From Balanoglossus misakiensis (Eukaryota; Animalia; Hemichordata): 64,000 nt of DNA. Below, in pieces: positions 12,271 through 63,515 of the stretch. The stretch's first letter is position 1, and each line of letters starts with the position of its first letter. The DNA is taken from assembly GCA_040954595.2 (NCBI GenBank), contig CM082597.2, positions 6,969,849-7,033,848 on the forward strand, written 5' to 3'. Below the pieces are notes generated by a model, which searched no databases, was not told the origin of the DNA, and saw only the letters and a list, made by a program, of their open reading frames with translations. The translations under genes and the position numbers were made by a program.

Positions 12271-12725
12271 AGGTTATTACGAAAATACCGCAAAGTATGC
12301 ACGAGGACATTAGCGCTGAGTATCGCCCGACGCGTATAGCGGAGGGCGATGCGCTGCGCTAATGTCCGAGTGCATACTTTGCGGTATTTTCGTAATAACC
12401 TTATTATTATACATCTTACATCTCCGATAGTTCTTGTTTTGCATGTTACTTGGTTTTCAAAACGCCCAAAATGCCGATACAATCGATCGAAAACCGCTCA
12501 GTGAGCAGCCATCTTTCTTTTTTGTTTACGTACGTGCGCGTGCATTGGAGTGGGGGCGCCTTGAAACCGTCCGCATAACAACGCATACCTGTACACGGTG
12601 AGTTGGGGCGCCTTGAAACCTAAAACTTATTTAACGCGCGTTCCGTACGTACCGTTCCGTACGGCTTTTTATTGCACGCCAAAATCTATTGTTCTCGGCA
12701 CTAGATGTATAATAATGAATAATAT
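12271..12725. mobile_element. Palindrome-ended (Crypton-like) non-autonomous element
   Basis: Hairpin 12271-12401 with perfect 32-bp arms, followed by ATTATTATACATCT, whose inverted copy AGATGTATAATAAT lies at ~12703-12716. The interior is CpG-rich. The family assignment is an inference. Confidence 0.55.
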
Positions 12726-15700
12726 GTAACAGCTGTTCAAATAATATAAACAACCTGATAGTTTGTGCCATCATTGCATCATAACATGTTTTTGTAATGA
12801 TGCTGACTTTGGACAGACATGACAGAGCTCGAACACATCTACACACATTCTCTATTGAGAAAACTCTTGAATAGGATTGTGTTTCAGAGAACAGATAACC
12901 AGGGTGTTGAATTGTCAGTGACTTCAATTCAGATGTGTCTGATAGACCACAACAGATTTGTCTCTGCAATTCAGTCAAAGCACTGTTCTCTTCTAGCAAG
13001 ATAGATTCCACCTCAGTGACATCACACGTCTGTTCAATATAACAGTACAGTTTAGTGTCTGTTTTGACATTGACATACTTTAATTTACATTCACTCTTAG
13101 TTTTGGTGTTGTCGTTGAAAGTCATGAAAGGGAAATATGTACTCTTGAAAGTGTCAGGGGAAATCAAGGCGGGGAAATGTGTAGCCTTTAAATTGTCAAG
13201 ATAGGCTAAATCTAAATCATATTTCAATGCAAATGGAAGTTTGATGATTTTGGATGAGTTGCTGCATCTTCCATATGCAGTTAAGTGGTCACCTACAAAC
13301 TCCAATTGACGAATAACCATGCCAGCAACCACAAATCTATTAATTGCTGCTGATATTCTATGAGCACCAGATATCATACGATATGGCAGGACAAATGTTT
13401 CAACATGTCGACAATCTTGAACAATATTGCAAAAGTCCTTTGCAAAGCTATAATCGCCAATGCACCCTGAAACATAGGTAAAAGTATGGGCATTCACTGG
13501 AGCCAAACTATGTAATATTTGTTGACTGCAAGGCCAGGACAATTCCCGCCGATTATCACAAAATCTGACATTGTTGAACCTATATAAATCTGAAAAGGCC
13601 AATATGAATTGTGTCACAACACCAAAGTTCCCCCAACAGAATTTGCAGGAACATAGAGATATCTGTGCATCTAAAGAAATGCTCTCCTCGTCTGTCGACA
13701 GACATTCACAAAGTACTTGATGAAGTCCGACGGGGTCACAACTTAATTTACAAAAATCAATTACAATTTCATGATTTTCAATCTTGGCAATAATCTGGCA
13801 GTTAGGTTTTGAGCAGAGTGTACAGTCCCCCTGGCAACTAGGTTTTAAGTGCACATGTTTTGGTGTATGGGGTTGACATTTCTTCATCAAACCATGTATA
13901 GTTTTGATGAAATCTAACTTGACATATCGTACTGCCAAACTAACTTCTTTGGCTCTAAATTTGAGTAAGTCTGAGATTATGCCAGTGATACGACAATCAC
14001 TTTTACGAGTGAAATTGGTGTAACCATATGAAAATGACAACGACAGCTTATTAAATTCGACTGATATTGCATCTTTCACCATTGCTTTTACATCAGACTC
14101 AAGGTTCTCATCATTTAAGTTACATTTGACATCCATGTCCACTGAAACTCTGTCACTATCAATGGATTCATTCTGTAAAAATAACTGAAACTGATTAAGG
14201 AAATCTGCATTCTGTTTATACATCTTGTAACACAAGCTAGAAAACCTTTCAAGTTGAAACCTGGCAGTGAGATCTTGTTTACCCCTAAAGTTACTATTCT
14301 TACCAACTTCCAAAGAAAACGAACCGATTGATTTACTCTCACAGAGTGCTGTATGTAATTTGTTCAAGAATGCTGCTGGTACATTGCAGTAAGGTAATTT
14401 AATGTCAAGTTGTTTGGCTGTAATCTGTGATATGCATTCGACTATACCAGTGGTGTACATTATGTCATCTTTATGGCGGAGCTCTGAACTCACACTGGAG
14501 AAGTCCATTGACAACTTACAAAACTTTACCTTGGCCACTCTTCTGTGCATGTCCTGTATGTCAGAAATGTTCATGTCTTCCAAACTACCAGAATATGTGA
14601 TGTTCATGTCTAAAGTAACTTCATCATTATTTATAGATGCATACTCTGAAAGTGCTTGATAAACGCTCACAAAATCAAAACTCTTGCCATCTTGAAAGAA
14701 ATGGATTTTAAACTTTCCAAACTTGGCAGTGACAGTATCATCAATCTTTACATCTTTTTCTCTCTTGGTACCATCACAGCTGAATCCTACATCAACTGAC
14801 CTAATTGACCTACACTCACACAACACTGCATATGTAGTTTTCATGAATTCTATACTGTCCATTGGTAATCTTTCAATGACCAGATTGTTGGCAGTAGTCT
14901 GTGACAGACATTGGACTATACCTGCAAGACCCTTGATACTAGCAGAATCAGAACCTAATTGTCTTTCGGAGGTAGCAAAAATGCCAGTGAGATCAAATAA
15001 GTTCAGTGACAAAGTGTTAAACTTAAAACCAACTAAATTCACTCTTGCAAGCATAGCTTGTACAGCAGCTGCAGACTTGACCCTGAAATCACACTTAATT
15101 TCCATGTCTAGTTCAAGTTTATCATTACTCACATATGCATACACTAAAAGACAGTAATATAGTCTCACAATATCAAACATCATGTTACGTGTCTTGTAAC
15201 ATAAATTAAAATGTGCAAACCTTGCCTTAATACAAATTTCCTGGTTAATTTTTTTTAGCCCAATTGCATGATGTAACATTTTAGGCCAAAAAGGACCCCT
15301 GTTCCATTTCATACCTGCATCATCATAAAATTCAACATCAACTGACCAAAAAGACTTATTCTTACATAACTGAGTAAGTACAGCTTTTAAAAATTCCATG
15401 TCGCGAATCAGGAATCCTTCAATCACAATTTTTAGTTTGTTGGCAGTAATTTGTGATAGACATTGGATTATGGCAAAAAGAAAATATATAGCTACGGTGT
15501 TCAAAACATTGAATGTCAATGACAGATATTCAAAATCAACCAAAGAAACTTCTGCCAGCAAAGACTGTATATCAGACTTAATGTTCTTATTATTGATATT
15601 ATAACTGACTTCAATTTCCCGCCTAACTCTGTTAATCTTACCATATTGAGAAAGAAACTTGCACAGATCTGAAAAATCAAAATCCCTGGTATTTACAGTG

Positions 15701-18700
15701 TATTTGCCATTAAAGCAACTGTGCTTCCCCTCAACATCAAATGTACTTCTGTCAAAGGATCTGAAACTAGTTTGCCTTGACTGCTGGAAAGATTTGACTT
15801 CAATGGCAACTGATCCTAGAGACCGATTTCTACACAATGATTCATGTACAGCTTTTATAAATTCCATATCTCCGAAAGGTAACCCATTAATCACAAGATT
15901 GTTGGCAGTAATTTGTGACAGACATTGGACTACACCTCTAAGACCATGATAACTGAGCTCAGTATAATTCTTGAATTCCAATGCTAAATTATCAAATTCA
16001 ACTGATGTCACTCCTCTCAACAAAGTCTCCATGTCAGAATCAGTGTTCTCATCTTTAAAACCACATTTGATACCCACATCTAGAATAAGTTTCTCATTAT
16101 GAACAGATGCATACTGTGAAAACATCTCACACAAACTGGATAAATCAAAATTTAAAGTATCTATGCGGTAAAAGCTTTGAAAATGTCCAAATTTAGCTTT
16201 GATGTTTGGTTTATTCTGTGATTCCAAACCAGCATGCACATCAACTGACCCAAGAGACTTATTCCCACATAATGATGCATGTACATTTTTTATGAACTCA
16301 ATATTCCCTACAGGTAACCCTTTAATGACAAGCTTGTTGGCAGTAATCTGCGACAGACATTGGACCATACTTGTCAAAGAGTTGATGTCTGTAGTTTTAG
16401 AATCAGAAGATTTCAATGACAGATTATAACAATTATAATCAGCCATGATATCAAGTTGTGTTTTCCTGTGTTGTGGGGAATAAAAACTGACTAACACACT
16501 ATTTGTCAGGTTACTGCCTTCGTTAATGTTTACAAGTTTTAAAACCTCATAATGCTCAACAGGTAACCTATGAATGTCAAATCGTTCAGTGATCTTTGAC
16601 AAACCTTCGACTAGACACTTGACATTATGCAAATGAAAGCTTTTCATGTTTGAATTATCATAATTTGAAACAGTCACTTTAATCTCCACATGTTTTGGAC
16701 ATTTCAACTCTTCATCTCTAGCAGTAGTGGCATTTGTTTCAGAACATATTTCATTTATAAAATCAAAATTGGACACATACTTCAAAGTGACATCGGATTG
16801 ACTTATATCATATTTTATATTTATAGTCCATCTCCGGCGTATATCCCCCCTATGTTCAGTTTTGAATGAGTCAAAAATATTTCTGAATGTATCTGCTGTC
16901 AAAGAATTGGATGCAGACATCTCCAATGTGATGATTTCAGAACTGATATTTGGGCATTTCAAAAGCACTGTGTTGACATGTAGCATGTATTTGTCAGAAT
17001 GGTCATCCATGATGTCATTAAGGTCTATTGTCAGATATTTGGGTAAAAACTTAGAACAGTAAAATATTGTTTCCTCAGATTCACAACCACTTTCATACAA
17101 CATTGGCCTTGCATCAAAGGATTTATCTGAAAAAGACTTTCTCTCCCAAACCTTGAATACTTCACCAACATTGTTTTGCAAGTGACCACCAAGAAACTTC
17201 AACATTGCATCATTCCTAAGTAAATAATCTCCAATAACTGAAAATGCAACAGAATCTTCAAATTCTTTATGGTTACTAGTGCATAGATTGGAAATGTACA
17301 ATGAAGCAAAATATTCCTGAAATGTGAAATGATAAAAGTTATAGCTTGGAGGTCGAGAGGTTTTTGTCAGAAGTCCCAACTTCTGTAAGTGTGGATGATC
17401 TGAAATTTCTTTTTCACTGAAAGAATATTTACCAGACTTCAAAGCAGTATATGAGAGTTTACTTAAGTAGAGAATTTCATCCCTGATTTCATCACCCTTT
17501 GGATCAATAATGTTATCTTGTTTTTCACAGTATCGGTTTACAACATGATCAATTAACTTTTCATAAAGTCCTGTGATTGTGTGTGGTAGTTTCTTTGTTT
17601 TCATCCAAATATCACATAACATCAAAGTATTCAAAGGACTCTGCAAAAATCCATACAAAATGCTGTCGTGGATGGATGTCTTCAATTCATTGATAAAACT
17701 CTCAACTGTTTCTGGTGTTACAGTTTTATCCTTTGAAGACATTGCATTTATATGCTTTTTAATAAAAGCTTCTGCATTCTCTGTATCAAAACCCTTAATC
17801 AACAATTGTCTCTCATACATCTGTTTGGAGTTCTTGTCCCTGATTTTCCGAGATGTTACAATTACTGGGCAGTCAGGCAGCAGTTGTCGTTTTTCTCGGA
17901 TCATTTCCTTAAAGTACACTGGGAGATCATCAATACTGACTTCATCAAGTCCATCAAAGACAAAACACACTTGTGATTGATTGCTTTCAACAAAACTCCA
18001 TATCTCATCTGCTCCTTCAACATTTTGTAACAAGCAATCAAAAACTGCATCTTTAAGACCTTTTTTCTGATTATTTTCTGAATGGTATTTATGTAGATCT
18101 TTCAATTCAAAATGAAAAAGAAGCTTGAAACAATTGAGAAAATTTACATTGCCGTTTGCCCAATCATATGCCAACTTTTTACAAAGAGTTGACTTACCAT
18201 ACCCTGGATCACCTTCTATTAAAATTCGTCTTGGATTTTCACATTCATTACATGGTGAGAATAATTCTTTGATTGCAAAATCTCTCAAATGTCCATCTTT
18301 GGTTTGTAATTCTAATTCAATGTAGATATCTTCAAGTTTCAATCTCTCTGTTCCATCCCACCATGGTAAGGGGAGAATGTTGGACTGTCTCTTGTAGTAT
18401 TCTTGCAACTTTTGTTGGCACTTGATGACAACATCTGAAATTATTATCATTGAATATTTCTGTATTACTGATCACATTAACCAAAGTATCATGGAGCAAC
18501 AGCCAACAATTCATCACATGTGATTTTTGAGCGTTTTATTTGAATGAAATGGCCCCTCAACATCTTTGAACATCATTAAAGTGATTCCTGATAAAAAAAA
18601 TTCAAGCACTGATAACAAAATGATGGATGGGCTCAGATGTCTTTTTATGATTGAGACCAGGAAATATAATTCTGTCACCCACTTCATTTTATAAAGGACT

Positions 18701-20678
18701 AATTTCAACAAGGAAAACAATAGTTTTGGATCAAACCGTAGTGGTGAAAGGGTTCAACCAATTCATGGTGAGAAACTTACCTGGTGTGGTTTTCATGGTT
18801 GGCATGTTGAAGAATGGAGTCTCAGAAGTGCTGGGTTGGTCACCCTGTTGAGAATCTATCAAAATAAAAAAAATAATGTATAACAACTCTTTAATAATCA
18901 TTTCTCTTCTTTGACACAAATTAACCCATTCATTGCAGCTGTTGTAAATAAAAAACACTGCTACATTTATAAGCAGTAGTTACAGGTAAAACCAAATATA
19001 GAATTTATTATCGAACATTGACATACGTACTATTCAAATCTTGTACCTTTTTTGGACTATAATTTCTCCACATCTTTTCCACTGGTGCGGAAAATTTGAA
19101 CACTAGTAGATGATAATTTCAAAAGTAAGTTTACCTGCGGTTGTAGTGTCCTCAACAGCTGGATCAGTTTGTTGCCTAGGTGAAGGTGACTGTTGTCTTG
19201 ATGTCAAGGGATAATGTGCATGTTTGTCTATGTGGTGTTGTATACTTGTGGTTTCACCTTCTGGATCTTTCATCATTGTCTTCATCTCTATCTGTGTTGC
19301 AGCTGAACTAACTGCACTGCTAGCAGCAACATCACTGACATATGAGATACCTGAAGCATGTGAAAAATCACATTGGTGCATTAATTTTGCGTGGAATTCT
19401 TTTTAAAGTATATTTCAATCTAATACTTTAAGCACTCAAAATTTCTTTGACCACTATTTCTTTTCAAAATTAAGTTTTTATTTCACCTCCATATGTTTGG
19501 CCACCAGGTCTTAAAATTAAATGATTGCATTCAAAACCTTATGAAGGATAACAAAACATTTCTGATGTTATGTTAATGAGGACATCATCTAAACATGACC
19601 CTTTGCTTTGTGAATGACACTTTTTTTTATAAAGGGTCAGATGAACTCAAAATGCATGCAGTGTGTTTCAGTCACTTTGACAGAGCTAAATATATAGGCT
19701 GCCTACATCACTTCATCTATTTTCGCACTGAAACTTGTGTTAGTGGCCACCTCTATATAGTGGCCTCTTTGTCCCTGAGCAAAGAACATTTGTGCATAAA
19801 AGCCAAGAAAGCCTTGATTGGCCTCTATAAATTTAATTCTGGTTGAACATTAAGGGTGATTCTGGTATTAAATGCAAATGTAAACTTGTTACTTAGTAAA
19901 TTATGCAAGTCCTTACCATAAGATCCTGTGGTTGATACTTGAGTTTTGGACTCTGCTTCTCTTGTCACTTCATCATATGGATAGTCTTTGTCAAACTTTT
20001 TCTCATATCGAACTTTTACATGCTTCGCTAAAATGTAAAGTCCGGCATTTTTCAAGAGCTGAATAAGAGTTTCAGGTTTATCCCTTGATAAATGTCCAAA
20101 TTTTAACAACGTTTCAAACAAAAGAAATGCACGTTTCTCTCTCAGAATTTCTTCCCTTTTAACTGCAGGTATTGAAGGATCCAATATAGCACCCAGTCCA
20201 TCAACCAATTTAATCAGGTCATCTTTAATGCATAAAAGAAAAGATTATACATTAAACATTTTCCGGAAATAATGCTCTCCTGAAATTCAATGTAACAGTT
20301 GCAATCACTGTCCAAAATTCAATAATATTGAAACTTTAAGACATGAAAAAGTTTCTTGACAAAATATCCCTTGTTAGCCGTATGGGATTATATCATGAAA
20401 CAGAATGACTTGGATACATGTATTAGTACAAGAAGTATGAATGATTCTGTGTGCGACCATGTATTCATACAGTATCCTTGTGCCAAGTTTGCATAAAAAT
20501 TAGTTCAGGCTTGTGTGAGTTATAATGTCTGTGGTCGCAGCCCTGCATGTTGATAGATAGATATCCATGAGTGTCTTCAAGTGTCACTGGAGTAAAAACA
20601 TTCACATGTACACTCACCACCTACAATATCATCTGCCAGCCTACTAAGATACACCTTAAACAGATCAAATCCTGCCAT
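12631..20678 (-). CDS. NLR/STAND protein: DED, low-complexity linker, NACHT, long C-terminal repeats; ~2153 aa
   Basis: Phase-1 exons 20678-20618, 20222-19917, 19350-19135, 18855-18781 and 18434-12631 (6462 nt). DED-like N-terminus MAGFDLFKVYLSRLADDIVGDDLIKL...IPAVKREEI...LLFETLLKFGHLSRDKPETLIQLLKNAG. NACHT motifs: Walker A ILIEGDPGYGKST, Walker B FVFDGLDEV, sensor 1 VIVTSR, SPLNTLMLC, and winged-helix FYHFTFQEYFASLY. Confidence 0.92.
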
Positions 20679-23600
20679 CTTTGGTTATATTTCCAGCTCA
20701 CTTCAGTGTGTGGAGTTCTTCAAAGTGTTAACAAAAGAACACATTATACATCTGTCACACCTATCAAAGAACAAATGAGTGTCAAATAATAATAAAAAAT
20801 TAGACCTGAATTGTTTACTATTGCTTTGATAATTCATAAGTTATATAAAATATAAAAAAATTGTTTACCAACATTGTCACATTATGGTAAATACATGTGA
20901 ATCGATTATGTGAATCAATAACTTTTTTTTATCAGCATTGAATTTGTCAACAATAACAGTGGCCCCATCACACACAAACATGCACACTGCATTTAACTGT
21001 GGTTTATTTGCAGTTTCACCCTGACAAATTTCACCTAACAATGTTCATGTAAACTTGTATTCACCCAGGAATGCTCTATGCCACTCTAGACCAATCACAG
21101 TCTGTCTACTTTACCAAATGATCACGCACCAATCAAATGTTTTGTTGCCAGTACCTTTAGGTGGAGTTCACCTATATCTGCCATCACCAATATATTTGAC
21201 GAGAACTGACTAGACTTTCAACACAAATATATGATACTTCCAGATTTCTGAGCGAGGCCTGTATAGTCTGTGAGTTTTCTTCAACAACCAATTATACAAG
21301 AATTGATAATGATTTCCCTCTAACAACACATATTTCTTCGTAATTTAGAATTTAGTACAAGGAAATAGAAATTCCATGAGTAACCTCAGATGACCTCTGC
21401 AATACCTCTGTGGTACTGTTTCACACAGGTGAACAATTACAAATAATCATAATTTTGCAGTGATATTGATTCTATTTTCAGTTATATCACGTTCTCATGC
21501 ACTTATTTACACTACCTATCCAAAATTATAGCGCTTAATTATGCAAAAAAAACCTGCAAAAAATCTCACTTACTTTTTATAGTGGATGCCGACATGAAAC
21601 TGCAGCACCACCACCCCAGTATAAAGAGTTAATCAATTATCATTAACATCAATAGTTAAAGATTTCTGAGACGCCCTTTACAGTTGGCACTACGTGCTAC
21701 TTGCTCACCAAAAACTTTGTCAGGAGAGCATTCAATTTAGTAAATAAGACATAAAATCAGGTCCAATATAATTAAAACAGTACTGGGCATGAACTCAGGC
21801 CTAGCTCGCCTAGACAAAAGTTTGGGTGAAAACATGACTAAAAGTTGATGCTTTAAAACGCTGTTTAAAACTTGAAGGTACCTGAAGTCCCACATAAACA
21901 GCTTTTAGGTAGAGCAGCGAGCTGGGACAATCTGTTTAGGCTGGTCACAAAGTAATAAAGTCCTACGGGTTAATGTTTAACAGTCTACGGGTAATTGGTT
22001 GGCATGTACATGATAAAAAACTTTGGCTCAGCGACATTCTGCACAGAGGTGACATACTGAACAGAGGCAACATTCTTCCTCGACTGGAAGCAAGTGTTTT
22101 CTTGATCTCCTGTAATTCTTGATAGGTATGAAAAATATATGCATGAGGAATCATTTAAATTGACTTGTTGAACATTTGTGCTTCAAAATTATAATTTAAG
22201 TGGTAAATCTATTAATTCTGGCTGTTCAGTGGTCACTTTAGGTTGACATATTAATATAGCTATACTTCCTTGTATCAAATTAGGGATCAGGAAAACACAC
22301 ATTTTAATAGAAGGGAAATATTATTGTTCGTAGTACTTTGGGTTGTTCAGCTACATTCTTAGACTAGGCTTGAATCATTACGAGTTCTGAAAGTAGTTTA
22401 AATTTGTGTTCAAACTTAACTCTCGCTCTCAGACCATTGCTTCAGTGACGCAGTACCAGTACTTAGCAAATTCACCCAACAATATAATGGTTGTATTCAG
22501 CCACTCCCTTGGTCCCTCCCTTGATCAGATCTATATGGACTTGTGGAAACTGAAACAATGGCAGTTCATTCGACTATTTAGTAAGAGACCAGTTGCTTCA
22601 GGTCAGTGGTTATGTATATAACTCCATATGGTTGTCTTTTTCTCAATAACCTACAGCCAAGGGTGTCGTAGAGTTTTGATAAAATGTTTTGTCCAATGTC
22701 ACATCATCAAATATGGGAGAACATTTTAATATCCCCAATGATGTACTTTGATTAGGTACATGTATATAGTTGTGAATTTCTCAAAAATGGAACATTTACA
22801 ATTTAAATGTTTAATTGATCCACAATCACACCACTCAAGTAATCACAAATTAATAAGAGTTACCATGGTGGCAGGGGTAGTGTAAGTGTGTGCCTTTCTT
22901 AATATGGAAGAGAATCCACAGTACCGGTAGTTGATGTTTTAAAATTCAGACGACAATCAATTAAATGATTTGTTTCCCTAGCCACAATAGCTGCCACGTT
23001 TAACATATGTTTAATCAGTAGAATTCTTCAGTCTTCTCCTTACCTTTAGTCAAGAAATGACACTATTTTGACTTTGTGGGGTTTTAAATACCCATGATAG
23101 TTTCGATCTCCTCTAATGGGCAATTGATACAAACATACAAACAAACAAATGTGATCATATTTGTAAACAAATTTTTCAAACATTTTTTTGTTTATTATAT
23201 CAATCAATAACATCAAACAAACAAACAAACATACACAATACAAACAGAGAGCTCTCACAGCCCACAGTTCACTACAGGCTCCTCACTGATTCCCCCTCAA
23301 CCGTTTAGCAAAGCCCCATATGAAGTTGTGTAGCGAACCTCTCGCCTGGTACACATGCAATCAGAGTATAAGCTTGCATGGACGAAGAGATGGGCTGTGT
23401 TATTGTAAGCCTAGCTGTCTTCAGTGGAAAGGTTTATGACACTGTAGACCAATCACAGTCTGTCTACTTTACCAAACGATCGCGGACCAATCAAATGTTT
23501 TGTTTCCAGTACCTTTTAGGTGGAGTACAGCTCTATCTGCCCACACCAATATGTTTCACGAGAACTGGCTAGACTTTCAACGCAAATATGTGATACTTCC

Positions 23601-43091: not shown

Positions 43092-43121
43092 GGGATTTCC
43101 CGTCGTGAGCAGGGAAACTCC
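43092..43121 (+). promoter_or_regulatory. Tandem NF-kB/Rel consensus sites
   Basis: GGGATTTCCC (43092-43101) and GGGAAACTCC (43112-43121) both match GGGRNNYYCC. They lie 20 bp apart in a CpG-containing stretch 120-150 bp upstream of the ATG at 43241. Confidence 0.6.
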
Positions 43122-43240: not shown

Positions 43241-46167
43241 ATGGCTGAAGGCAGGGCTAATTCACCGGGTAAGTTAAACACCTGCTGGTGCACACATGGC
43301 TATATCAAACCTCAGGGCTCAGGGCATGGTGTCTGATCAACACTGTTTAAAGGTGGAATTTTCAATCCCTGGTTCTCACATTAGTGTGTGTGTGTGGCGG
43401 GGGGGGGGGGGGGGGGGGGGGTTCTCCACCTAGCCCAAACATTAAATTACAATATGATTTGTTATAATGAAATTACAAACTGATCTCAGCCATTAATTGT
43501 CATCTAATCTAATCCTGAAACATTATATCCAGTGTGGCATGTCAGTTCATTTCATCATGTAGGCTCAAATATGGTAAAAACTTGAGAACAGCTGCACATA
43601 TCATGGTGATATTTGGTGTTGTAGATGCATGCGATGGATGCTCAGCTGCGATGTCTTTTTTGTGATCATATTGTTAAAAATATGCAAATGAGCTCAAAAA
43701 TCTTCCTTTTCAAAATTCCTTGTCCCACTGCTTTGAGATTTGGCTTGTAATTGTAGGTTCCCTTGGGTAATTTTTGTTCAAATTATGGCAAAATTTGCAT
43801 GTTAGAATTTTTGGGCAATTTTTGCTTGTTTTTTGGGGGGCATAAAACTACTTCTCTGAAACTGGCCCTTCTGATTGCTCAGAATTTTGTTACGATTGTT
43901 CTGAGGAGGTGGCATAAAGTATTAGATATGTTCAAATTTGGGTGAAATTGGTATTTATTGGCAATTTTTGACATGTTTGGTCGAAAATCTGCATCTTGTC
44001 TGATTTCTTTGAATCTCCCTTTGTCAATAATGGTGGCTAAAATTGCACAATGGCTGTTATCACTAATAAAGGAAGAGTTTGATCAGTTACTTACAATGCC
44101 ATCAGAAGAAAATTATGAAGATGAAATGTATCATCCAAAGCCATCAGAAAAAAAATACTGTAAGAAAAACATCATATGATGTGTGAAAATGTACTGAGTG
44201 GTTGCTGATGTACACTGGCGGAAGTTTGACGTCTCCACTAAGCAACGAAATTACATTTTAATGTCATAGCATTTGTATACTTTCATAGTTATCTGGTCAC
44301 TTACTGGGCATGCGTTTTGAAAGTTGAAGTTTACAAACATTATGTATATACAATGTATTGTCCGAAGGGTTAGGCAGTGTTCTTCAGAGAGATGAGAGAT
44401 ACAACAAGTTTGAAGATGGTTTTTCTGTGAAAACAGCTCGAGCTGTGGTGAAAGGAAGCACTACTGACCAAATTTTTTTTTTCGGTCATTTAAATTGCAA
44501 TACATATAAAACTATTTAAACCAGACATTATGGAATGAAGAAATTGTTCAGTTTACAGAGGTGTTTGTTTAATAGTGGTTCTTTTAACATGTGGTTCTAT
44601 GAGAAATGACTGGAAAATGTGTTCAGTACAGACATGTGTTCAGATTAGACAGGGTTCTGTGTAGACAAGTTTTACTGTACTTTATATCCGGAACAGGCAT
44701 TTAGCAGAACACTGGTTTATTTCTTAGAAGATTCAAATAATAACCATTTAGTGTATGACCAATAACAATAATGTGAATCATCAGCAAATTCTATGACATC
44801 TGCTTCTCCTATCACATGTTGTTTGCTGGGAAATTGCTATGCTGCTTTGAAATGAATAAACGTAACTACTTTAGCATTGGGAAAAAGCTCATCTTGTATG
44901 CAAAAAGCTTCCGAAGCTGTGAGATACCCAGATCTTTATAATTATTTCTCTTCGATTTTAAACAGGGGTTGACTGTACATTTCTTCTAATTGCAAGAAGA
45001 TGGCAGGAGGAGAAATGTGATGACTCTACATCGTTTGTCAATAGGCAGTTTGCTATACAGTTACAAAAACATGGATTTAAAGTCTTATCAACAGCCATTG
45101 AAGCAACAAAGGTTGAAGAAGAAGATGCAAAGAAAAATAATGTTACTTTAATCTTGCCATATGAAAATCCAAAAAAAAAGTATCAGAAAAAAATTAAGCG
45201 GGAGGATTGGTTGATGCATCCCAAGAAATTTTATAGGCATTTAAGTAAATACGAAGATGTAGTATCCTATATAGTTGGCCATGTTGGTGAAGAGGGGTCT
45301 CACACAGCTTCGGAAGCTTTTTGCATACAAGATGAGCTTTATCCCAATGCTAAAGTAGTTACGTTTATTCATTTCAAAGCAGCTAAGCAATTTCGCAGCA
45401 AACAACATGTGATAGGAGAAGCAGATGTCATAGAATTTGCTGATGATTCACACTCTGTTATTGTTACTGGTCATACATTAAACAGTTATTATTCAAATCT
45501 TTTAAGAAATAGACCAGTGTTCTGCTACCTGCCCGTTCCAGATATAAAGTATTTAGATCTCACTGTTCAATGTCCACAACCAGGTGCACTTTTTGAGATT
45601 TATAGTGTGGGGAATTATGAAGAGTACTTGAATCTCTGTGAGGTCATAGCTCCAGCTGTAGGAAAGGTAGCCTCTAATCGTTGTTTGATTGGTGTAAAAC
45701 AGCTATATTGGTACCTTATTAATGTTGATAAAGAAGTGATTTGTGATTTGAAAGGAAACTTACTTGGAAAATACAACTCAAAAGATCTTGAACTTCGTTT
45801 GTGTTCTTCAAGTGATTTTACTCCGGCATTGTTGAGAAGTTCCTTACTAATTGACACAAGCAAAGACTTGTTTTCACTGTCAGGTCTAAATGCTATCGCG
45901 GCTGGCGTTCCAGTACTTTTCCACCATACATCAAGTATTTCTGAGTTTTTAACACAGGACAAATATCTAAGTTCACCTTGTGAGAGAATTATTGTACTAG
46001 ATGAAGAAGTCTATCCTGGCCAATCATGGACTAGGAGAATTTCAACAGTTTTGAAGGACAGAGAAGGGGCATTCAAGCATGCAGAATGTGTGAGGGAAGG
46101 TCTGAAAAAATCCATCGAATGTGGTATGATAAAAGACTCACTTGATAAAATATTGGCTTCATTCTAA
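43241..46167 (+). CDS. Stand-alone GT4 (GT-B fold) glycosyltransferase-like protein of the NLR-associated 'conflict' type, ~409 aa, catalytic motifs degenerate
   Basis: Exon 43241-43268 (MAEGRANSP, G|GTAAGT) joins exon 44966-46167 in phase. Motifs: VNRQFAIQL..GFKVLST..EAT..EEEDA..NVTLILP, DWL, IVGHV, PNAKVVTFIH, LPVP, FSLSGLNAIAAGVPVL. AATAAA at ~47056. Confidence 0.8.
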
Positions 46168-48320
46168 CAAGCTGAACAAAATGATACCAGAATAGTGATG
46201 TCATGCATGCTTCTGTCTCTTAGACATTTCAATGTCTCCACACAGATATGACAATGTTGACCCAGTAGTTAACGTTACTTGGATAGTCAGCATGTTTTTA
46301 CAAAAAATTTGAAACAGTTTTAAGATTAGTGTCTTATAATATAGAAGTTTCATCAAAATTTAGTAACTAGACACACAGTTTATCTCTACATGTGTTTATT
46401 GATTTTGTATGTAAACATTGTGACAGATGACTTAGACTTTGAGTTTCTGTCCTAATTAAGTGACAACCATAGCATAATGCTAAATCAGAGTTCATTATTA
46501 ACGATTGTTCAATTGTAGGTCTGGGACAAGTAATTTACCCATTGAACTAGGAAATTTCATCATGTCTGATCAGGTTTTTTTTTGTAAAACAAAAACTTTT
46601 TATACGTAGTACACACTCATTCGAGCAATTTAACTGCGGCTGGGCGCACATCTGGCAACAAAAATGTTCAATGAACATGACATTAAATCAAAAAGTTGCA
46701 GTGGACATACTGTTGAGTCAAAGATATGCCGGCCTTGCTATTTTCACATACTCATTGTAGATGAAATAAGAGAACTTGTAAATTAATCCTTGCATAACAT
46801 TTGCCTCTGTTGATTTCACAAAAATTTCCTTTATTTTACTGACAGATCATTGTAAATTAATTTCTGTGTGTTGCTTGCTGACATGATGAAGGGCCTACTT
46901 CGATGTAGTGACTTTAGATAGAAATTTTGTATACTCAGCTGCACATGATTTTTATTATACGTATAAATCATAGATGCACATACCTGTAGTTTTACAAATA
47001 ATTTTTTTCAACTATGATGTATTTTTATATGTACAGAATATATTTTGTGTGACAAATAAACAGAATTGAGCTGATAATATCATTGCGATTCATACAATCT
47101 TATTGCCCATAAAATACATATATTAGCATTCTGTTGTAGTTTGTATGAATTCACTTGGGCCAGCCCTATGTATCACACTTCAAAATAATGCAGCTGAGAC
47201 AGTATACTTGGTGAAGAGAATGAGAACAAAAACATTAGATTATATACAAGTATGTATATGAAACATGCATAAAATATACTTCATTCTCATTATTACACAA
47301 AAGGAAAGTCTAGGACAACATCAATACAACATATATAAACTTTTCACAGAAAAATTATTAAACTTCATTAATGATTGCAAAGTATGCATTTTGAACAAAA
47401 AACTTTGCAAAGTAATGAGAGAGCAGGTACCCACAATCAAACTTTCATTTGTAGATTGAGTACACGTAAAGTATACTTTACGGTATATAAGGTGTTAATT
47501 TTATAGAAATAATGCAACTATATTTATACTTGTCGTGGGTTTTAGTCAAACACTCAATGCCATCTTGATCTTTGAAATACAGAAATGGGTCTCCTGCAAA
47601 AATGTGATTTAAGTTGACGGATAACATATTATAATTAGAAAATTCTTTGCATTTTATAGGTACAGCTTTGATAGAACAAAAGGCCATTTCCATGTCTGGT
47701 GTGAAACCTCGAAAACCTAGTAAGTGTAAAGTTACTCTGGTCATATCTGCTTGCCAATGTCACATGTGATTTTTATTCCAGTGTATACCTAAATTCGTGT
47801 TATTAATCCTCAAAGGGGACCACAGTGTCCTTGACGCTATTTTTCGTTTTGCAGTATGTTGTGTAATTGTGGTAGCCTGTGACACATGAGTATTCAGATG
47901 TTTGGGTGGGCATGTTCTTGCATAAAATAAGCGTCTTTGTTACTACAGGTAACCAGTTGATCATGTATGGAGCAATGTGTCACGTCTCTAGCTACAGTTT
48001 AGTAGCCCGCGATCTGAAGCAACATAACGGTGATCTTCAGGCATCCATGATCACGTAACAAAAAAGCTGATTTAGTGTTCATGCACACTGTAATGCGAAC
48101 CCTTCCAGTAAGCAAGGCAGTTCTGAATTGTGGGCGCACGCCTAACATTGTCTGTGTACGTGATGCAGACTACATGAACCTTTTACGCGTGGCTGTGAAA
48201 CGTATGACTAGCCTAAAAGAGTTCAATTTCTCTATGAACTGGGTGTCCTTACCTTAAATACATAGTATTTAAATCCATTCATTGTTGATTGTTTTCTTTG
48301 CTTCCATTTCTCCCAAACAG

Positions 48321-51300
48321 AGCAAATTTTTGTTCATGTCAGTAGTAAAGTCATCCATTCACCCAAAAGACAACAACATGCCAAAGAAAAGGAGAGTAAA
48401 ACTACGCTAGGATTGGACTCCACACACATTTTGCTTAATGAAAAGTACGGTGAACTAATTGATACAGTGCCAGCAGAGGATAAACTTGTTTTGGTAATAA
48501 AATGCCAAACTTTAGACCAATTACAAAACCTCTGGTATGGTGCGGGAGATGGTCAATTGACAGAACTAATAAAAAAAACAGTTACTGGCAGACTTTGATT
48601 CGGAGGAGCATGATACATATCATACATATGTCAAGAAATGGGAGTATGAAAAGTGTTACCAGGAGCTAGAATATGATCTGTCAGGTTAGTAATTATGAAG
48701 CTTGTACATTTGTGGTGGTTACAGTTGTTGTACGCAAGATTATGTGAGACCAACACTCAATAAAAATGGCTACCGCCAGAGACAGTGTTACGGCCGAAAC
48801 ACATTTTCAACGATCATTTACTAGTAAGATCAAGCAAGAATTTTTGTTCGCCACTCTGGTGAATAAAGTGCAAACAATTTTCGTCAATATGAATTTGACT
48901 TCGCGGTTGTGAATTTGGCAAGTGCTAGCTTATGAGCTAATGAAATTGAATTATTATACTATATATGCCACTTTCTTAAATAAACTGTGTGTAAATACAA
49001 ACTAGTCAATATAAACAATTTAAATTCTAGCATCAATATAGATAGGGCAGGTGAGATACATGTAGCCAAATATGCCCGATATGTGATGTCCATCTTTTAT
49101 GTTGAACTTGATAATGATATGGGTATGATCAAACCAATACAGAATCATCCTCCGTGACAAGCTCTATCAAAAGTTATGATGTGGACCTGACTGATAAGAG
49201 ATGTATAGTTAAAAAAAGTACTAACAGGGTAAGTAATTCTTGATATTTACATGTACTTTCTGCATACCTCCATCCATCCATTCACACATACATACATACA
49301 TACATACATACATACATACATACATACACACATACATACATACATATAGAGTTGTACAACATTAGTACATAACATAGGAAACATAGCTAAATGACTGGTA
49401 CTGTTTATTTTAATTCCAAATATTGCATTTCTCCATTTCAGTCTCAATCCATATTGCACAAAGCGGTTGATGAAAATAATCTGTCAGAGGCTCGAGTGTT
49501 GATCAGTCATGGAGTCAATGTCAGTGCCAAGGATAAGGTATTAAGTAACATGCAAGCTTATACTTACCATCAAAATGATTTACCAAATGATTACAAACAA
49601 ATGATGAAATGAAAGAATATAATTTTATGCAAGCTTTGTTATCTGTAAGTTGAGATCTGTAAATGTATGAGTTCCAAAGTCTGATACCAGATTCTATTTA
49701 AAGTAATTAAGCATGATATGATGCAATTGTGATCTGATGTGATGTCGATGATGTATTTGAACTGCTAGGCTAGCTGGGTTCATGACTATGAAAGAACAGA
49801 GGAATAATTTACAAAACAAGCATGCAGAGTCAACACAGGGATGATTCAACAGACAAATCCAGGCACGAACCTGTAGTCTAAATTAAAATTGGATGGGATG
49901 GGAAAGCTAGTGAATCTAAGGGAACTTATGGTTGATCACGGCTGACCTGCTGTCATTGAATTAATTTATGGGAGTGTCTTAATAGGCATGCTGTTCATTG
50001 ATAGGAATTAAGGATCCAAGAGCTAGTTGAAGGCAAGCTTGCTTGGAGATACTGTTGATCAATCATGAGTGTACATGAGAATAATATAATCTCACACACC
50101 AATGACCTGGGATCATATTTCTCACATGAGTTGGGGATTTTTTGTCCTACACTCCCCTGCAGCTCGTGTAGGACAAAATATCCGTGACGAGTGTGAGAAA
50201 CATGATCCCAGGTTCTTGGTCTGTGAGATTATTTTTCTTACACGGTCACAAATTAGCCAAATTCGTGTTAGAAACATTGAATAATAGACTGTGTAACTGC
50301 AGTTTGGTACATCACCACATTCTATATTCATATCGATTAAGAGGAGTGACTAAAATATATGTATTTATTTACCAAGTGTCCTGATGTACTGTTGCAGTTC
50401 ACAATTGGATCTCTTGGAAAATGTTTGTGCTCATGCAATGAAACATTTAAAGTAATTTCCTGCAAGAGTTATTCACAGGTCTTAAGTCTATATTAAATTT
50501 TTGGTTGTTTTCCCTCAGTTTGGTACCACACCATTACACTGGGCAGCAAGAAATGACTGTAGTGATGACATGGTAAGACTTTTACTGCAATCCAATGCCA
50601 GCATCAATGTAAAGGACAATGTAAGTTTGTAATTAGAATCATTGTGTTATCTATCTTAGAAACTCAACATTTGACACGTACATCATTATCACTGTCAGAT
50701 TTTGTGGAAACATGCCTTGCTAAATTCTTGAACAGACTGTTACACAAAATACGGTCTAGCTGTGTGCAGCCATTCAAAATGTAATGGTCCTGATGTGGAT
50801 AGGCAATAATTTGCTAATGAACCCATTGCATTCTGGCTGTTATATCACTCTTCATTTTTTACAGGATGGTAACACACCTCTTCATTATGCAGTAAGGGAT
50901 GGCCATGTGAATACAGTGAAGTTATTATTGGAATACAAGGCTGATATCAGCATACAAAACAAGGCAAGTATTGTTTTAAAAAATACACCTTCAACATTAA
51001 CGCCACTTTTTTAATCTTTTCAAATTGTTGTTGTGCCAAAAGTAAGTAAAAATTATTCTTTTTCATTACCAGTGACGATTATTCATAGATCATACCTTGT
51101 ATGGGGCTAGGTTTGAACATTAGAGTGGATGAAAATAAATCAGTCTGTGCCTTTTTAAACTCACATGTTTTTTTAAAGTTATGTGGCCAACGCATTGAAC
51201 TGGGGTGGCTGGTACAGATATACTATTGTGCTAAATCCACAGGAGGTAAATATTGTGGATGAGGTTTGTGTAGCACATATAAATGTTATTTGCATGTTTG

Positions 51301-54300
51301 ACCCAGAAATAGAAATACTCTGTCAAGTTCTATAATATCATACATTGTAGACTAAGCTGTATGTAGATGAACAGCTTAGGCTCTTCATCTGTATCTGACT
51401 GATGTACCCGTAGATCTACTGAAGTTCTACTGTAGACCATCTTTAGATCTAACACACATGTTCAGTTTCTGTAAGGAAGAAAAAATAACCATATACATGT
51501 ATACTAAACACTCTAATCTGTCTTCTTATATCTTAGGCTGGCTATACCCCTTTGGATATTGCAGTAAATGAGTTAAAGGTATGTATTATGAGGCATTATA
51601 ATATACCTCATGCTAATATGTACTGTGTTGTGATTCGCCAGAATCCGTCACGTGATAGGAAAATATAATCGACTATGAATCCCCAGGGAAATAGCAGAAA
51701 AAATATAAACCAGTCATGTGACCAGCGTGAGTGTGCAGAGACGGTCACACCAATCAGCGTCACGTCGTCTGACACGATGGCCATGCACTGCTGAAGATGT
51801 CGTCTGCCAATCTCAAGAGAAAATTGCAAGATTTTCCCAACTGTTAGCATGAGGTTTATTATAAAACACCTATGGCCTGGCCTATAGTCGGGCCATAGCA
51901 GCCGTTTTTACCCCCTCGTGGCTGTGAGTTACTAGAATCATATGCTATTTCCCTCGGCCTGCGGCCTCGGGAAATAGCATGTGATTCTGGTAACTCACAG
52001 CCCCTCGGGTGTAATAAACGGCTGATATGGCCCTCATGGCCAGGCAATAGGTGTTCACTATAGTCCAGACAAGGCTATCATGTTAGTTTCTGTCACTTGA
52101 GCAAGACATGTTACTTTAATATTATTGCTTCTACGCGCGCGCAAACATGCAAAATTTGTCTCTCCAGGTTCACATGCAAGTGGGAGTTGTTCCATTTGAA
52201 TTTGAGGATTTCTGTTTGAAAACATTTAAGGCACTGTTATGCTAGTTCATGTATGTTGTAGTACAACTGTTACCAATCTGAGGAAAGTGTTCATATATTA
52301 CATCAATATTGCAACCCTAATTAAAAAAAGAGGTAATCCAGACATTGATGTATTTCATAATGTAATGTATGTGTACTCTTACTTAAATCCTTAGGGTTAC
52401 AACACAAGGGAAAAACTGTATACCATACTGACATTGCTCTTACGTTCCCACATTTCATCAACCAAGGTGAATTCTTATTTATATTTTGATACTGGGTACA
52501 CTTGATCTTGCAACAATTTAATGAATCTGCCACAGTATATGTATCCCGGGATATGTATGGCACTTATAATAGGACCTGCAAATATTTTTGTGTAACGTAT
52601 ATCAATAAAATAAATTATGTGAAGAATTCATTCCTCAAACATGCAAGAATATTAGTGCAGAAATCCAGAAAGTATAGAACCACTTATTTGATCTACAGAG
52701 TGGTTGATAAATTGTATCAGAGAATTGTATGAACTTTCTTGGTTAATATGAATTGCAAATGATAAAAATGAATTTATGAGATTAAATTGATTTGTGTAAA
52801 AAAATTATGCAAATGCTCCCCATATAGCATATTGTCTAAAATTCCTGCACTTGATAAACTTTGGGTGCATTCTTTTTTCAGAAACTATTTCGCAAAGCTG
52901 GAAAAATTGGAATCATCTTAATCGAAAAATCTGATTTGCCGAGTGAAGTCCTTGACTTATCAGACGATGCTTTGGATGAGAAGTTGACAGCAGTTTACAA
53001 CAGTGGCGAGAAAGCAAGTGCGGTTATACTTGGTGACAGCAATGCATTATCAAGGTTAGATGTATTATTGAAAGGTCGAGAATTAAGTTCATTGGTGTTA
53101 TGTAATGTCGATATCAAGGAGATGAGAAACATAAAGGTATCGGAAAGTCTCACTTTAATAAGTGTTAAGTCTTTTGATCCAGAGAAAGTGATTGGATGGC
53201 TTTTGCCTTCAGCTAGGTATTTCACCTGTATTAATACTAAGATCCCTGTACCATGGTCTATCCAACATCCTGGGTCATTTGACATACTAAATGTAAGTTA
53301 CTGTACCCTCCAAGTGAAAAAATCACCTCAAGCAGAGAGTAAAATGAAACTTAACAAAATACACATAGCTTGTGGGAGTGTTAAACAGTTGTTCTTAAAT
53401 AACAATGGTTTGACTGATCTGCAGGAGGACATCGGTTCAATTCCTGGTTTATCAACATTGGATGTGAGTAACAATTCAATTAAGAGAATACCACCATCGT
53501 TGAGCAAACTTGTTGATTGTGAATACATCAGCATAGAAGGAAATCCGTGCATAAACATACCACGTGATATTTTAAGGGATGGTAAGGAAGCCGTCTTCTC
53601 TTACTTGAAGGAATTTCTGAACACAAATACATTACCTAATAGGAATGTCAAGGTAGTTCTTGTTGGTCATGAAGGTGTAGGAAAAACAACTCTAGTGCAA
53701 GCACTGAAGGGTGAATCATCAGACGTGCAGAAAACTGATGGCATAGAAATCTCGGAAATGAATCTCAAAAGGAGAGATATAAAGTTGACCGTGTTTGATT
53801 TAGCTGGGGATGTAGATTTTCTGGAATCACATTCACTGTTTATTACAGATGACAGTGTCTTTTTGGTCACCTTTGACCTCAGCAAATTTGCCATTAGTTC
53901 AACAACGAACAAGGTGTCCTCTTCACATCAAATAGGGAGAGTGAAATTGTGGTTGCAGACCGTGTTTGCACATGCTCCAGATTCGCCAGTTATTCTGGTA
54001 GGTACCCATGCAGATGCACCAATGTTAAACAGGGCTGTACTTGACTTGATTTGGCGGACGGTTCATGATACACTTGTTGAAATGAGAGACACACATTGCA
54101 AGCACTACCGGCAAAATATGCGCAAAGATTGCTTAGTGTGTCAGAACCAAGATGTGCTGAAAAGAAAGAGTATGTTTAAGGGATTAGCTGGATATGTGAG
54201 TATTGATGGTGATGAGGAATTGGTTGATGAAAGTCCAATGCCTCCTTCAGAAGGAAGAGCTCTGACTTCTTTTCCACATATTGTTGGATATGTTGAGGTT

Positions 54301-56096
54301 TGCAGCACAGAAAAATTCCCAAATTGGATATTATACAAAGGGAATAAGAGCATTGCACAGTTGCAAAAAGCACTAACAAAGGTTTGTGATAATCTTTTGG
54401 AATCAACAAACCCAGAAATCCCCGAAAAGTGGAATCTCTTGCGAGAGAACTTAAAATCAGAACGACTGAAACGTCCAAACCCAGTAATGACCTTCAAGGA
54501 ATACCAGGATATTGCTGAAAACATTGGAATTGAAAAGGGTGTGACATTAGATAATGCAACCAGTTTTCTGTGTAGTCAGGGTGACATAGTGGTTGATCCA
54601 TCTAGATCTACTATTGGTGATAAGGGTCAGCATGGCCTCGTAGTACTCGATCCTCGGTGGCTGGCTAATATCTTAAGGACACTCATATCTTATGCAAGGG
54701 AAGATGGGTCTGGGGAATTCATTGATAACAATGGCATACTGTCAATGGAGAACATGGTAAAAGCCTGGGCAGACATCGAAAGTGAATATTGTGGCTCACT
54801 TTTAGATCTTTTTACATCATTGCGTATCTGTTTTGCATTTGGTGATGAACAGACATCAGTTGAAGGGAAGAAGGGTTTTCTGTTTCCTTGTAAGTTACCC
54901 GTTGGTCAACCGTCACAAGATAGTTGGTATCCATATCCCAAAGACAACGACAGACAGGCTAGTCACCTTTATCGATTTGGCTTTCTACCTCCAGTGTTTT
55001 TCTGTGATCTAATAGTAGCAGTCAACAGTGCTACCTTTGCGAAACTAATTCACCCAACATACACACGAAATAACATTGTGTTTCTTTGCAATGAAAGGTT
55101 GGAACCATGCGGCGAATGTGTCAAGTCAGGTGGTTTTGATGGCAGTGTTAATGCTGCGCACCTTGTGCGTTTTGAGTTGCTTTACCATAGCAACAGTATC
55201 CTTGCCAGTGCTAGGGGACCACAGGCTTGTTGCCTCCTGCAACAACTCCAAGGCATCATGAAGGATGTTCTCAACACCCCTCAGTACGCGAATGTTGATA
55301 TGAAGGTACCCGAGTCCCTATCATGCCCACATTGCATTGTTCAGGGTGAACCCTTCATCGGAGAAATGAAACAATGTGGAAGTAGTCTAATTTGCTCCAT
55401 TCATAAATCACAGGGTCACACATTTGACAGCAGATTAGACCTAGTGCAGTGGCGTGGTGTGGTGTAGAAAGACCAATTTTTACCCAGACTAGATTTGACA
55501 TGTCCAAAGACATGCGCTGCCCAAGTCACTTTGTTATGCTGTCGGTTAACACAGGCAGCCTATCAATTGTGGGTCAACTGACACAGTATGTGTTTTCCCA
55601 CTTCACTGATGGTTATGCAGTCCACTTGCTTTGTGAAAACCCACAACAGTTGCATTTCATTGATTCCCCAGGATATCGAGTTAGAAATGTAAATAGGTTT
55701 CTCAAGAAGTATGGCCCACATATGTGTAGAATTCTGAAGTTCATTGATGCAGCAGGTGGTCTGCTGAAGTTTATTCCAGATCCAACCGGTACTGCTGCTG
55801 CAGCAGCAAAGGCAGTTCCAGCAATCGCTGGGAAAGCAGGTAACTTACTGTCAGAATTCTTGGATGATTTGGGTAGCAACTATCCAGAATTGAATGACAT
55901 ATCCAAAGAGCCACTAAAAAAATCAGTGGAGGAGATAGAAAAGATGAAATCATCACCACACCGCAGAGAATTCCAACACTTTCTGGGTAAAGCTGACGAA
56001 GGTGAACAGTTTGGGGGTCTTCAGCCAATAGCATATGGCACGGGTGTAATTTGGGTTTGTGAAACTCACTTTCGTGAGCTGGCAAGTAAATACTAA
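48321..56096 (+). CDS. ROCO protein: TRADD-N-like, ankyrin repeats, LRR, Roc GTPase, COR, C-terminal domain; two frameshifts in this sequence (null allele, pseudogene or assembly error)
   Basis: Exons 48321-48684, 49143-49228, 49442-49537, 50519-50620, 50865-50963, 51537-51578 and 52882-56096. ANK: GTTPLHWAA, GNTPLHYAV, GYTPLDIA. LRR: LFLNNNGLTDL..LSTLDVSNNSIKRIP. Roc: GHEGVGKTT, TDGIEI, FDLAG, VGTHAD. COR: VVLDPRWLANIL, LFPCKLP, FLPPVFFCDLIV. Frameshifts at an A8 run (48571-48578) and a GGTGT duplication (55456-55465). Confidence 0.88.
49268..49345. repeat. (CATC)n/(CATA)n microsatellite
   Basis: Directly visible. Confidence 0.9.
50084..50233. mobile_element. Palindromic (Crypton-like) element end
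   Basis: Imperfect hairpin AATCTCACACACCAATGACCTGGGATCAT ... ATGATCCCAGGTTCTTGGTCTGTGAGATT. Confidence 0.5.
51596..52062. mobile_element. Palindrome-ended (Crypton-like) non-autonomous element
   Basis: Inverted repeat CCTCATGCTAA (~51607) / TTAGCATGAGG (~51844), then a ~200-bp hairpin 51862-52056 centred on CCCTCGGCCTGCGGCCTCGGG. Confidence 0.55.

Positions 56097-60678: not shown

Positions 60679-63515
<2,837 letters not shown>

What the first reader, a model, noticed from the sequence alone, without database searches (positions are those of the whole stretch)
43241..46167. Stand-alone GT4 'conflict' domain with all donor-binding motifs degenerate (pseudo-enzyme)
Known: NLR-associated GT4 domains carry an N-terminal GG(I/L)ST.NR loop, a GR...KG UDP-sugar-binding motif and the E-x7-E signature EPFGL(V/T)GLEA. 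Seen: these read DDSTSFVNR, SVGNYEEYLNL and DLFSLSGLNA here, yet the ~409-aa frame is intact. Inference: a retained, catalytically dead GT-B protein acting as a glycan/nucleotide-sugar sensor, a decoy for pathogen effectors, or a regulator of active GT4-NLRs.
Basis: partly seen in the sequence, partly recalled or inferred. Interest (0 to 1): 0.7.

Follow-up and report, generated by a model that had tools for sequence, protein, structure and literature searches.

The report
Dead sugar-transferase in acorn-worm immunity
An intact gene in an immune gene cluster of a probable acorn worm encodes a sugar-transferase-shaped protein that lacks the residues such enzymes use to hold their sugar donor, as do its relatives in three acorn-worm families, so it is likely a binding or decoy protein and not an enzyme.

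Summary
Confirmed. Two exons (43241-43268, 44966-46167) give an intact 409-aa protein that matches Pfam GT4-conflict over its length (E 5.7e-30) and folds as GT-B (pLDDT 92; best matches BshA, MshA). The GG loop, the phosphate-binding Arg/Lys pair and both Glu of E-x7-E are replaced. This is not recent decay: a 422-aa stand-alone Ptychodera flava protein (45% identical) has the same losses, and both sit in a 15-member clade (SH-aLRT 99.8 with motif columns masked) spanning three acorn-worm families. Most relatives are fused to TRADD-N-like and immune tails. 'Stand-alone' is likely but derived: a frameshifted TRADD-N-like exon lies 2.1 kb downstream, so a fused isoform or recent truncation is not excluded. 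Best reading: a non-catalytic binding module like bacterial GtfB/Asp1, probably damping or assisting the fused receptors. Ligand, expression and inactivity are untested. The family is known, and three of these relatives are catalogued as GT4 in a paper that treats the domain as an effector enzyme; their loss of catalytic residues was not found in seven literature searches. New variant of a known kind; interest 0.5.

The parts
43092..43121 (+). Two NF-kB-like sites about 120-150 bases upstream of the ATG (a third at 43418-43427 in the intron); putative inducible promoter
   Evidence: consensus pattern recalled, function inferred
43241..43268 (+). Coding exon 1 (ATG, 9 codons plus 1 base), strong donor
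   Evidence: P. flava homolog has a similar short N-terminal leader ending in Pro-Gly
44678..44929 (-). Inverted, broken copy of exon-2 bases 45295-45551 inside intron 1 (91% identity, two stops, one 5-base deletion); would pair with the exon in pre-mRNA
44966..46167 (+). Coding exon 2: whole GT4-conflict (GT-B) domain to the TAA stop
45019..45045 (+). Replaced GG loop (DDSTSFVNR; residues 28-36)
45604..45636 (+). Replaced Arg/Lys phosphate-binding loop (SVGNYEEYLNL; Arg to Asn226, Lys absent, loop two residues short)
45865..45894 (+). Replaced E-x7-E motif (DLFSLSGLNA; Asp310, Asn318)
46682..47060 (+). Candidate polyadenylation signals (ATTAAA 46682, AATAAA 47055) between the stop and the TRADD-N-like exon
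   Evidence: use not shown
48321..48684 (+). TRADD-N-like exon with at least one frameshift near 48570-48600; relic or alternative tail of the GT4 gene
   Evidence: no Pfam hit for either frame piece at E 0.001

Best explanation
The gene encodes an intact 409-residue GT4-conflict domain without the residues that bind the nucleotide-sugar donor, so it is predicted to be a non-catalytic binding protein, likely the short, tail-less form of the acorn-worm GT4-TRADD-N immune receptors. Shown: fold class, motif loss, shared loss with relatives, open frame. Inferred: it keeps the two-lobed clamp and likely binds a glycan or protein surface in a cleft where acidic residues replace glycines and basic residues, as bacterial GtfB and Asp1 do; having no TRADD-N or death-type tail it would not signal alone, and would act by competing for, or presenting, the ligand of the fused paralogues, probably on immune induction through the NF-kB-like sites. 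My odds by step: not an enzyme 0.85; under selection in this lineage now 0.75; made as a stand-alone protein 0.65; ligand-binding modulator of the fused receptors 0.4.
For: Full-length PF20706 hit. Model pLDDT 92.2, pTM 0.92, two Rossmann lobes; top folds BshA and MshA, E about 1e-12. In characterised GT4s the Arg/Lys pair binds the pyrophosphate and the two Glu bind sugar and ribose (passages of PMC8760489; PMC3898925); all four are missing here. GtfB and Asp1 lack the two basic residues, Asp1 has Gln for the essential Glu, and both have an acidic cleft and bind substrate (passages of 10.1101/219105). P0006 (P. flava XP_070549310/1, 422 aa, 45% identity, E 2e-79) has Arg to Asp, Lys to Glu and the same Asp/Asn at E-x7-E, and ends 9 residues later. 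Window/P0006 identity is 72% in the quarter of columns most conserved in canonical members and 24% in the least conserved quarter (357 columns). The window protein keeps 29 of 45 columns that are at least 90% conserved in the 82 canonical domains. The intron copy gained 2 stops and a 5-base deletion in 257 bases while the 1202-base exon has none. No new polar cleft residue is shared across the 15-member clade. Poly(A) signals follow the stop, and the only in-phase internal donor is weak and would cut the last helix.
Against: No assay and no expression data. Active GT-B enzymes tolerate loss of one Glu and WsaF lacks the first Glu; His115 and His145 of the acceptor lobe are kept, and Arg20-Arg21 are matched by Lys-Arg in P0006. 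A TRADD-N-like exon 2.1 kb downstream is still recognisable and in phase 1 with the weak donor at 46124. That exon and the neighbouring Roco gene both carry frameshifts, so the cluster may be decaying or the assembly may hold indel errors. At three codons the exon differs from P. flava where the dead copy agrees with it, and differences are 7 synonymous to 11 non-synonymous (2 of them stops), which fits fast or relaxed evolution. Orthology with P0006 rests on the tree only; synteny could not be seen.
Confidence: 0.55

Rival explanations
1. It is the front of a longer GT4-TRADD-N receptor: a donor inside exon 2 (46124) splices to the exon at 48321, and the frameshift there is an assembly error or an allele.
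For: Phases match. The exon's best local matches are the TRADD-N-like regions of the nearest degenerate relatives P0012, P0025, P0019, P0026, P0022 (E 3e-7 to 1e-3 among about 200 session proteins). 9 of 15 clade members have the domain at the N-terminus of a longer protein. GT4 before TRADD-N is the published hemichordate pattern. The break lies at or near an A-run.
Against: The donor scores 1.4 bits against 3.6-7.3 for four of five evident donors (the fifth scored -0.7; matrix recalled). It would remove a helix that is conserved in relatives and confidently modelled. The exon is about 8 bases short against relatives, more like real decay. The P. flava homolog is annotated stand-alone; 5 of 15 clade members are stand-alone.
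Confidence: 0.18
2. It is bait: a mimic of the active GT4 effectors that binds a pathogen inhibitor and is watched by, or protects, neighbouring NLR or Roco proteins.
For: Fast divergence: mean identity 28% in the clade against 43% among 14 mostly canonical sister domains. It lies between a DED-NACHT gene and a Roco gene. The decoy concept of plant NLR immunity is recalled, not from a call.
Against: No pathogen inhibitor of these domains came up in the searches; a bait should resemble its model, and identity to canonical members is only 24-31%. Neighbourhood in an immune cluster is weak evidence.
Confidence: 0.12
3. It is a remnant: the GT4-TRADD-N gene was recently cut by a stop and is decaying with its neighbours; the open frame is chance.
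For: Frameshifts in the TRADD-N-like exon and in Roco; three amino-acid changes on the exon side since the local duplication.
Against: 3 lesions in the 257-base copy, none in the 1202-base exon (about 0.005 if lesions fell evenly; 0.125 on the shared 257 bases alone; my arithmetic, and the exon was picked for being open). P. flava has an equally short form. Strong exon-1 donor and promoter-like sites remain. Even if true, the motif loss is older than the decay.
Confidence: 0.1
4. It is still an enzyme, with a different donor or reaction (a rebuilt active site).
For: The replaced residues are shared with P0006 (Asp310, Ser313, Asn318; DSTSFVN) and acceptor-side histidines are kept. Asp at the first position occurs in active GT20 enzymes (recalled). 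GT4 donor sites vary.
Against: No basic residue stands in the phosphate loop of the window protein; P0006 has acids at both positions; the clade shares no substitute catalytic residue. In 51 degenerate-group domains the Arg is kept once.
Confidence: 0.07

Closest known systems
GT4-conflict domain, Pfam PF20706; metazoan GT4 and GT4-TRADD-N(DEDD2 clade) proteins of Kaur et al. 2021 (PMC8195603)
   Same: Full-length family match; same lineage and architecture class. Three near relatives (XP_006814349, XP_006811676, XP_002731836) are in that paper's supplementary lists as GT4 or GT4+TRADD-N.
   Different: The paper proposes the domain as an enzymatic effector that glycosylates invader or host molecules; here and in those three relatives the donor-binding residues are gone. 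This copy has no tail.
Streptococcal GtfB and Asp1 (non-catalytic GT-B proteins; 10.1101/219105)
   Same: GT-B fold kept, two basic residues lost, key Glu replaced by an amide, acidic residues at the cleft.
   Different: Bacterial adhesin glycosylation and export, with an extra beta-sheet domain and a known partner; no homology beyond the fold was tested; no partner or ligand is known here.
BshA and MshA (retaining GT4 enzymes, PDB 6n1x, 3mbo, 3c4q)
   Same: Closest solved folds, TM-score 0.63-0.69.
   Different: 11-15% identity; they keep Arg/Lys and E-x7-E and are active.
Coral glycosyltransferase-NACHT-LRR/TPR/ankyrin expansions (PMC12314368)
   Same: GT4-type domains expanded in invertebrate immune gene clusters.
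   Different: No NACHT is fused here; the window's NLR starts with a DED-like exon.

Membership tests
GT4-conflict (PF20706) domain family | Profile match above the curated cut-off over the domain | tested here: met
   105 bits against 26, profile 13-375 of 385
GT4-conflict (PF20706) domain family | GT-B fold with two Rossmann lobes | tested here: met
Active retaining GT4 enzyme | Arg/Lys pair for the donor pyrophosphate | tested here: not met
   Asn226, Lys position deleted or Asn; Asp and Glu in P0006.
Active retaining GT4 enzyme | E-x7-E motif | tested here: not met
   Asp310-x7-Asn318
Active retaining GT4 enzyme | N-terminal Gly-Gly loop | tested here: not met
   Asp28-Asp29
Active retaining GT4 enzyme | Measured donor turnover | not testable with these tools
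   needs an assay
GT4-TRADD-N (DEDD2-clade) fusion proteins | TRADD-N in the same reading frame | tested here: inconclusive
   Stop at 46165-46167; broken TRADD-N-like exon at 48321-48684; weak in-phase donor; no RNA
GT4-NLR (glycosyltransferase-NACHT) | NACHT fused to the GT4 domain | tested here: not met
   The only NACHT frame is on the other strand 25 kb away and has no GT4 match
GtfB/Asp1-type pseudo-glycosyltransferase (works like, not member) | Binds substrate or glycan and partners an active enzyme | not testable with these tools
   Residue pattern is alike; binding untested

The most novel reading that the evidence does not exclude
Acorn worms turned a borrowed glycosyltransferase effector into a large family of dead-enzyme receptor domains, older than the split of their three main families, which sit at the front of TRADD-N, TPR, NHL, Bcl-2, ankyrin, LRR and PARP14-like proteins and recognise microbial glycans or proteins inside the cell; this gene is the free, tail-less decoy that tunes them. 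GT-B would then be a new pattern-recognition fold in animals.
Probability: 0.25. Interest if true: 0.8.

Novelty: new variant of a known kind. Interest (0 to 1): 0.5.

Why it matters
The GT4-conflict domain is read in print as an enzymatic weapon of invertebrate immunity, and none has been assayed in what I read. About a third of the domains retrieved here (51 of 152) form degenerate groups, and all 26 looked up are from acorn worms. That splits the family into testable active and inactive classes and suggests a shift from effector to receptor or adaptor (N-terminal in 27 of 51 degenerate domains, C-terminal in 55 of 82 canonical ones). A single-domain, well-folded 409-aa member is the simplest one to express and screen for a ligand.

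Tried and rejected
No whole genome was held, so paralogues and synteny in this species were not examined. RNA runs: none was listed; no evidence either way. Homodimer prediction: no verdict (score 0.23, mark 0.32). Word-indexed homolog search at near length found none among 4281 candidates; the longer-length search found 2 amphioxus Roc-COR-GT4 proteins; the full HMMER scan found 269, of which the best 150 were seen. Single-sequence PDB search gave nothing meaningful. Fusion of GT4 to the downstream Roco gene was considered and judged unlikely: four hemichordate Roco homologs (42-54% identity, 998-1355 aa) have no GT4 or TRADD-N match in the window, though proteins over 1507 aa were not searched. 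dN/dS against P. flava could not be computed: no DNA for it was at hand. Monophyly of all degenerate groups is only moderately supported (0.933 FastTree; SH-aLRT 78 with motifs masked) and long branches may attract; I rely on the 15-member clade only. One degenerate domain (P0032) falls outside, among canonical ones. No earlier scan finding matched the sequence or the first word set. Seven paper searches showed no report of inactive GT4-conflict domains; subscription journals are largely outside that library, and one supplementary file of PMC8195603 was not searched.

Full report
Observation. The window is eukaryotic, intron-rich DNA at 33-43% GC. A 401-codon open frame at 44962-46167 joins a 28-base first exon at 43241-43268 through an acceptor at 44966 to give 409 residues and a stop. 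Pfam GT4-conflict matches nearly the whole protein (E 5.7e-30). An AlphaFold model from a 58-sequence alignment has pLDDT 92.2 and two Rossmann lobes; its best solved matches are GT4 enzymes BshA and MshA. The three motifs are as reported and align to the canonical ones.

Loss of the donor site. In characterised GT4 enzymes an Arg/Lys pair holds the pyrophosphate and the two Glu of E-x7-E hold sugar and ribose; in some enzymes one Glu is expendable (passages of PMC8760489; PMC3898925). Here Arg is Asn226, the Lys position is deleted or Asn in a loop two residues short, the Glu pair is Asp310/Asn318 and Gly-Gly is Asp-Asp. Of 45 columns at least 90% conserved in 82 canonical domains the protein keeps 29; the 16 lost include the donor-site residues (the four key columns are invariant in that set by definition). 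I could not inspect the pocket in coordinates, so 'no shifted substitute' rests on alignment and secondary structure. The pattern matches what passages of bioRxiv 10.1101/219105 describe for inactive GtfB and Asp1.

Relatives. A full HMMER scan found 269 proteins at E 0.001; the best 150 were seen. The best is P0006, Ptychodera flava XP_070549310/1, 422 aa, 45% identical, with only this domain and the same losses, Arg and Lys turned to Asp and Glu. From the session's proteins 155 domains of 280 residues or more were cut and 152 had both motif regions; 82 keep all of Arg, Lys, Glu, Glu and 23 keep none. The set is biased by the degenerate query. The window protein and P0006 pair at full support inside a 15-member clade (0.958 FastTree; SH-aLRT 99.8 on 74 domains with motif columns removed). 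13 of the 14 other members were looked up and all are P. flava, Glandiceps talaboti or Saccoglossus kowalevskii, three families of Enteropneusta. The wider degenerate group has 51 domains, keeps the Arg once, and all 26 proteins looked up are acorn-worm proteins; its monophyly is only moderately supported. Tails seen on degenerate members include TPR, NHL, Bcl-2, ankyrin, LRR and PARP14-like modules, and one has an N-terminal DED (22 relatives scanned). Three of four canonical relatives looked up are amphioxus and one is P. flava; other tree labels for canonical groups are unverified. The window is therefore likely from an acorn worm other than the three named.

Selection. Identity to P0006 follows family conservation (72, 40, 37, 24% by quartile), and the neighbouring Roco is 53-54% identical to its P. 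flava homologs, so an open frame over that distance implies long selection. A local control exists: an inverted copy of 257 exon bases in intron 1 has two stops and a 5-base deletion, the exon none. Against this, the exon side carries three amino-acid changes where the copy agrees with P. flava, and the count is 7 synonymous to 11 non-synonymous.

Stand-alone or fused. The stop follows the last modelled helix, poly(A) signals follow at 46682 and 47055, and 5 of 15 clade members are annotated without tails. But 48321-48684 is an exon-shaped stretch whose read-through best matches the TRADD-N-like regions of the nearest degenerate relatives (two of them are labelled TRADD-N in the supplement of PMC8195603; Pfam gave no hit). 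It has at least one frameshift and is about 8 bases short. A weak donor at 46124 is in phase with it. So the short form is derived from a GT4-TRADD-N gene, and a fused isoform or a recent truncation is not excluded. The ankyrin-LRR-Roc-COR gene further on appears separate and has its own frameshift near 55460.

Context. A DED-like exon plus NACHT gene lies on the other strand, separated by a 21-kb array of 1.8-kb repeats. Three NF-kB-like sites lie within 340 bases around exon 1, of 11 distinct sites in the window; 14 strand matches against 2.6 expected (consensus recalled; five sites lie in a repeat).

Mechanism. Shown: fold class, motif loss, shared loss, open frame. Inferred: no transferase activity (0.85); a clamp that binds a glycan or protein surface; no signalling alone; action as competitor or helper of the fused paralogues (0.4). 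Rivals are a fused isoform, bait for a pathogen inhibitor, a remnant, and a rebuilt enzyme.

What is known. In PMC8195603 I read 12 of 17 matched passages including the GT4 section, section 11 whole and a term search of its supplements with one file unsearched. It describes GT4 before TRADD-N in hemichordates and proposes glycosylating effectors; I saw no mention of inactive copies. PMC12314368 (passages) reports coral expansions. Seven searches (listings only apart from the five papers named) showed no report of inactive members. Two unreviewed notes of this scan describe degenerate GT4-TRADD-N arrays elsewhere in this genome; they agree but are not independent support.

Verdict. Real, intact, and likely a pseudoenzyme; one member of an old acorn-worm radiation, not a singular case. 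New variant of a known kind, interest 0.5.

Noticed in passing
window 44678-44929 and 45295-45551: The inverted intron copy would form a 250-bp RNA stem with the coding exon (-464 kcal/mol for 911 nt, shuffles -198), with the splice acceptor in the loop. It could be an editing or silencing substrate or affect splicing; most likely a chance local inversion.
   Followed up: partly
window 21068-42550: Tandem array of about a dozen 1.8-kb units, 92-98% alike, with a few insertions, between the NLR and the GT4 gene; no long frames in it.
   Followed up: no
window 12631-20680, minus strand: DED-like exon, short exons, then a single 1946-codon exon with NACHT and internally repeated C-terminal units of no Pfam family. 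It may share the 43.1-kb promoter region head to head with the GT4 gene; untested.
   Followed up: partly
window 49442-56096: Ankyrin-LRR-Roc-COR gene with a frameshift near 55460 inside sequence conserved in four hemichordate homologs. The Glandiceps homolog P0162 begins with a Rho-like GTPase sequence by eye.
   Followed up: partly
window 9430-10248: Single-exon sulfotransferase frame (Sulfotransfer_2, E 1.7e-45).
   Followed up: no
P0050 (Glandiceps XP_077990954): A degenerate GT4 domain at the N-terminus of a full PARP14-like protein with RRM, KH, macro, WWE and PARP domains.
   Followed up: no
window 62675-63082, minus strand: Match to the C-terminal part of degenerate-GT4 protein P0134 (E 2e-8), outside its GT4 domain.
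   Followed up: no
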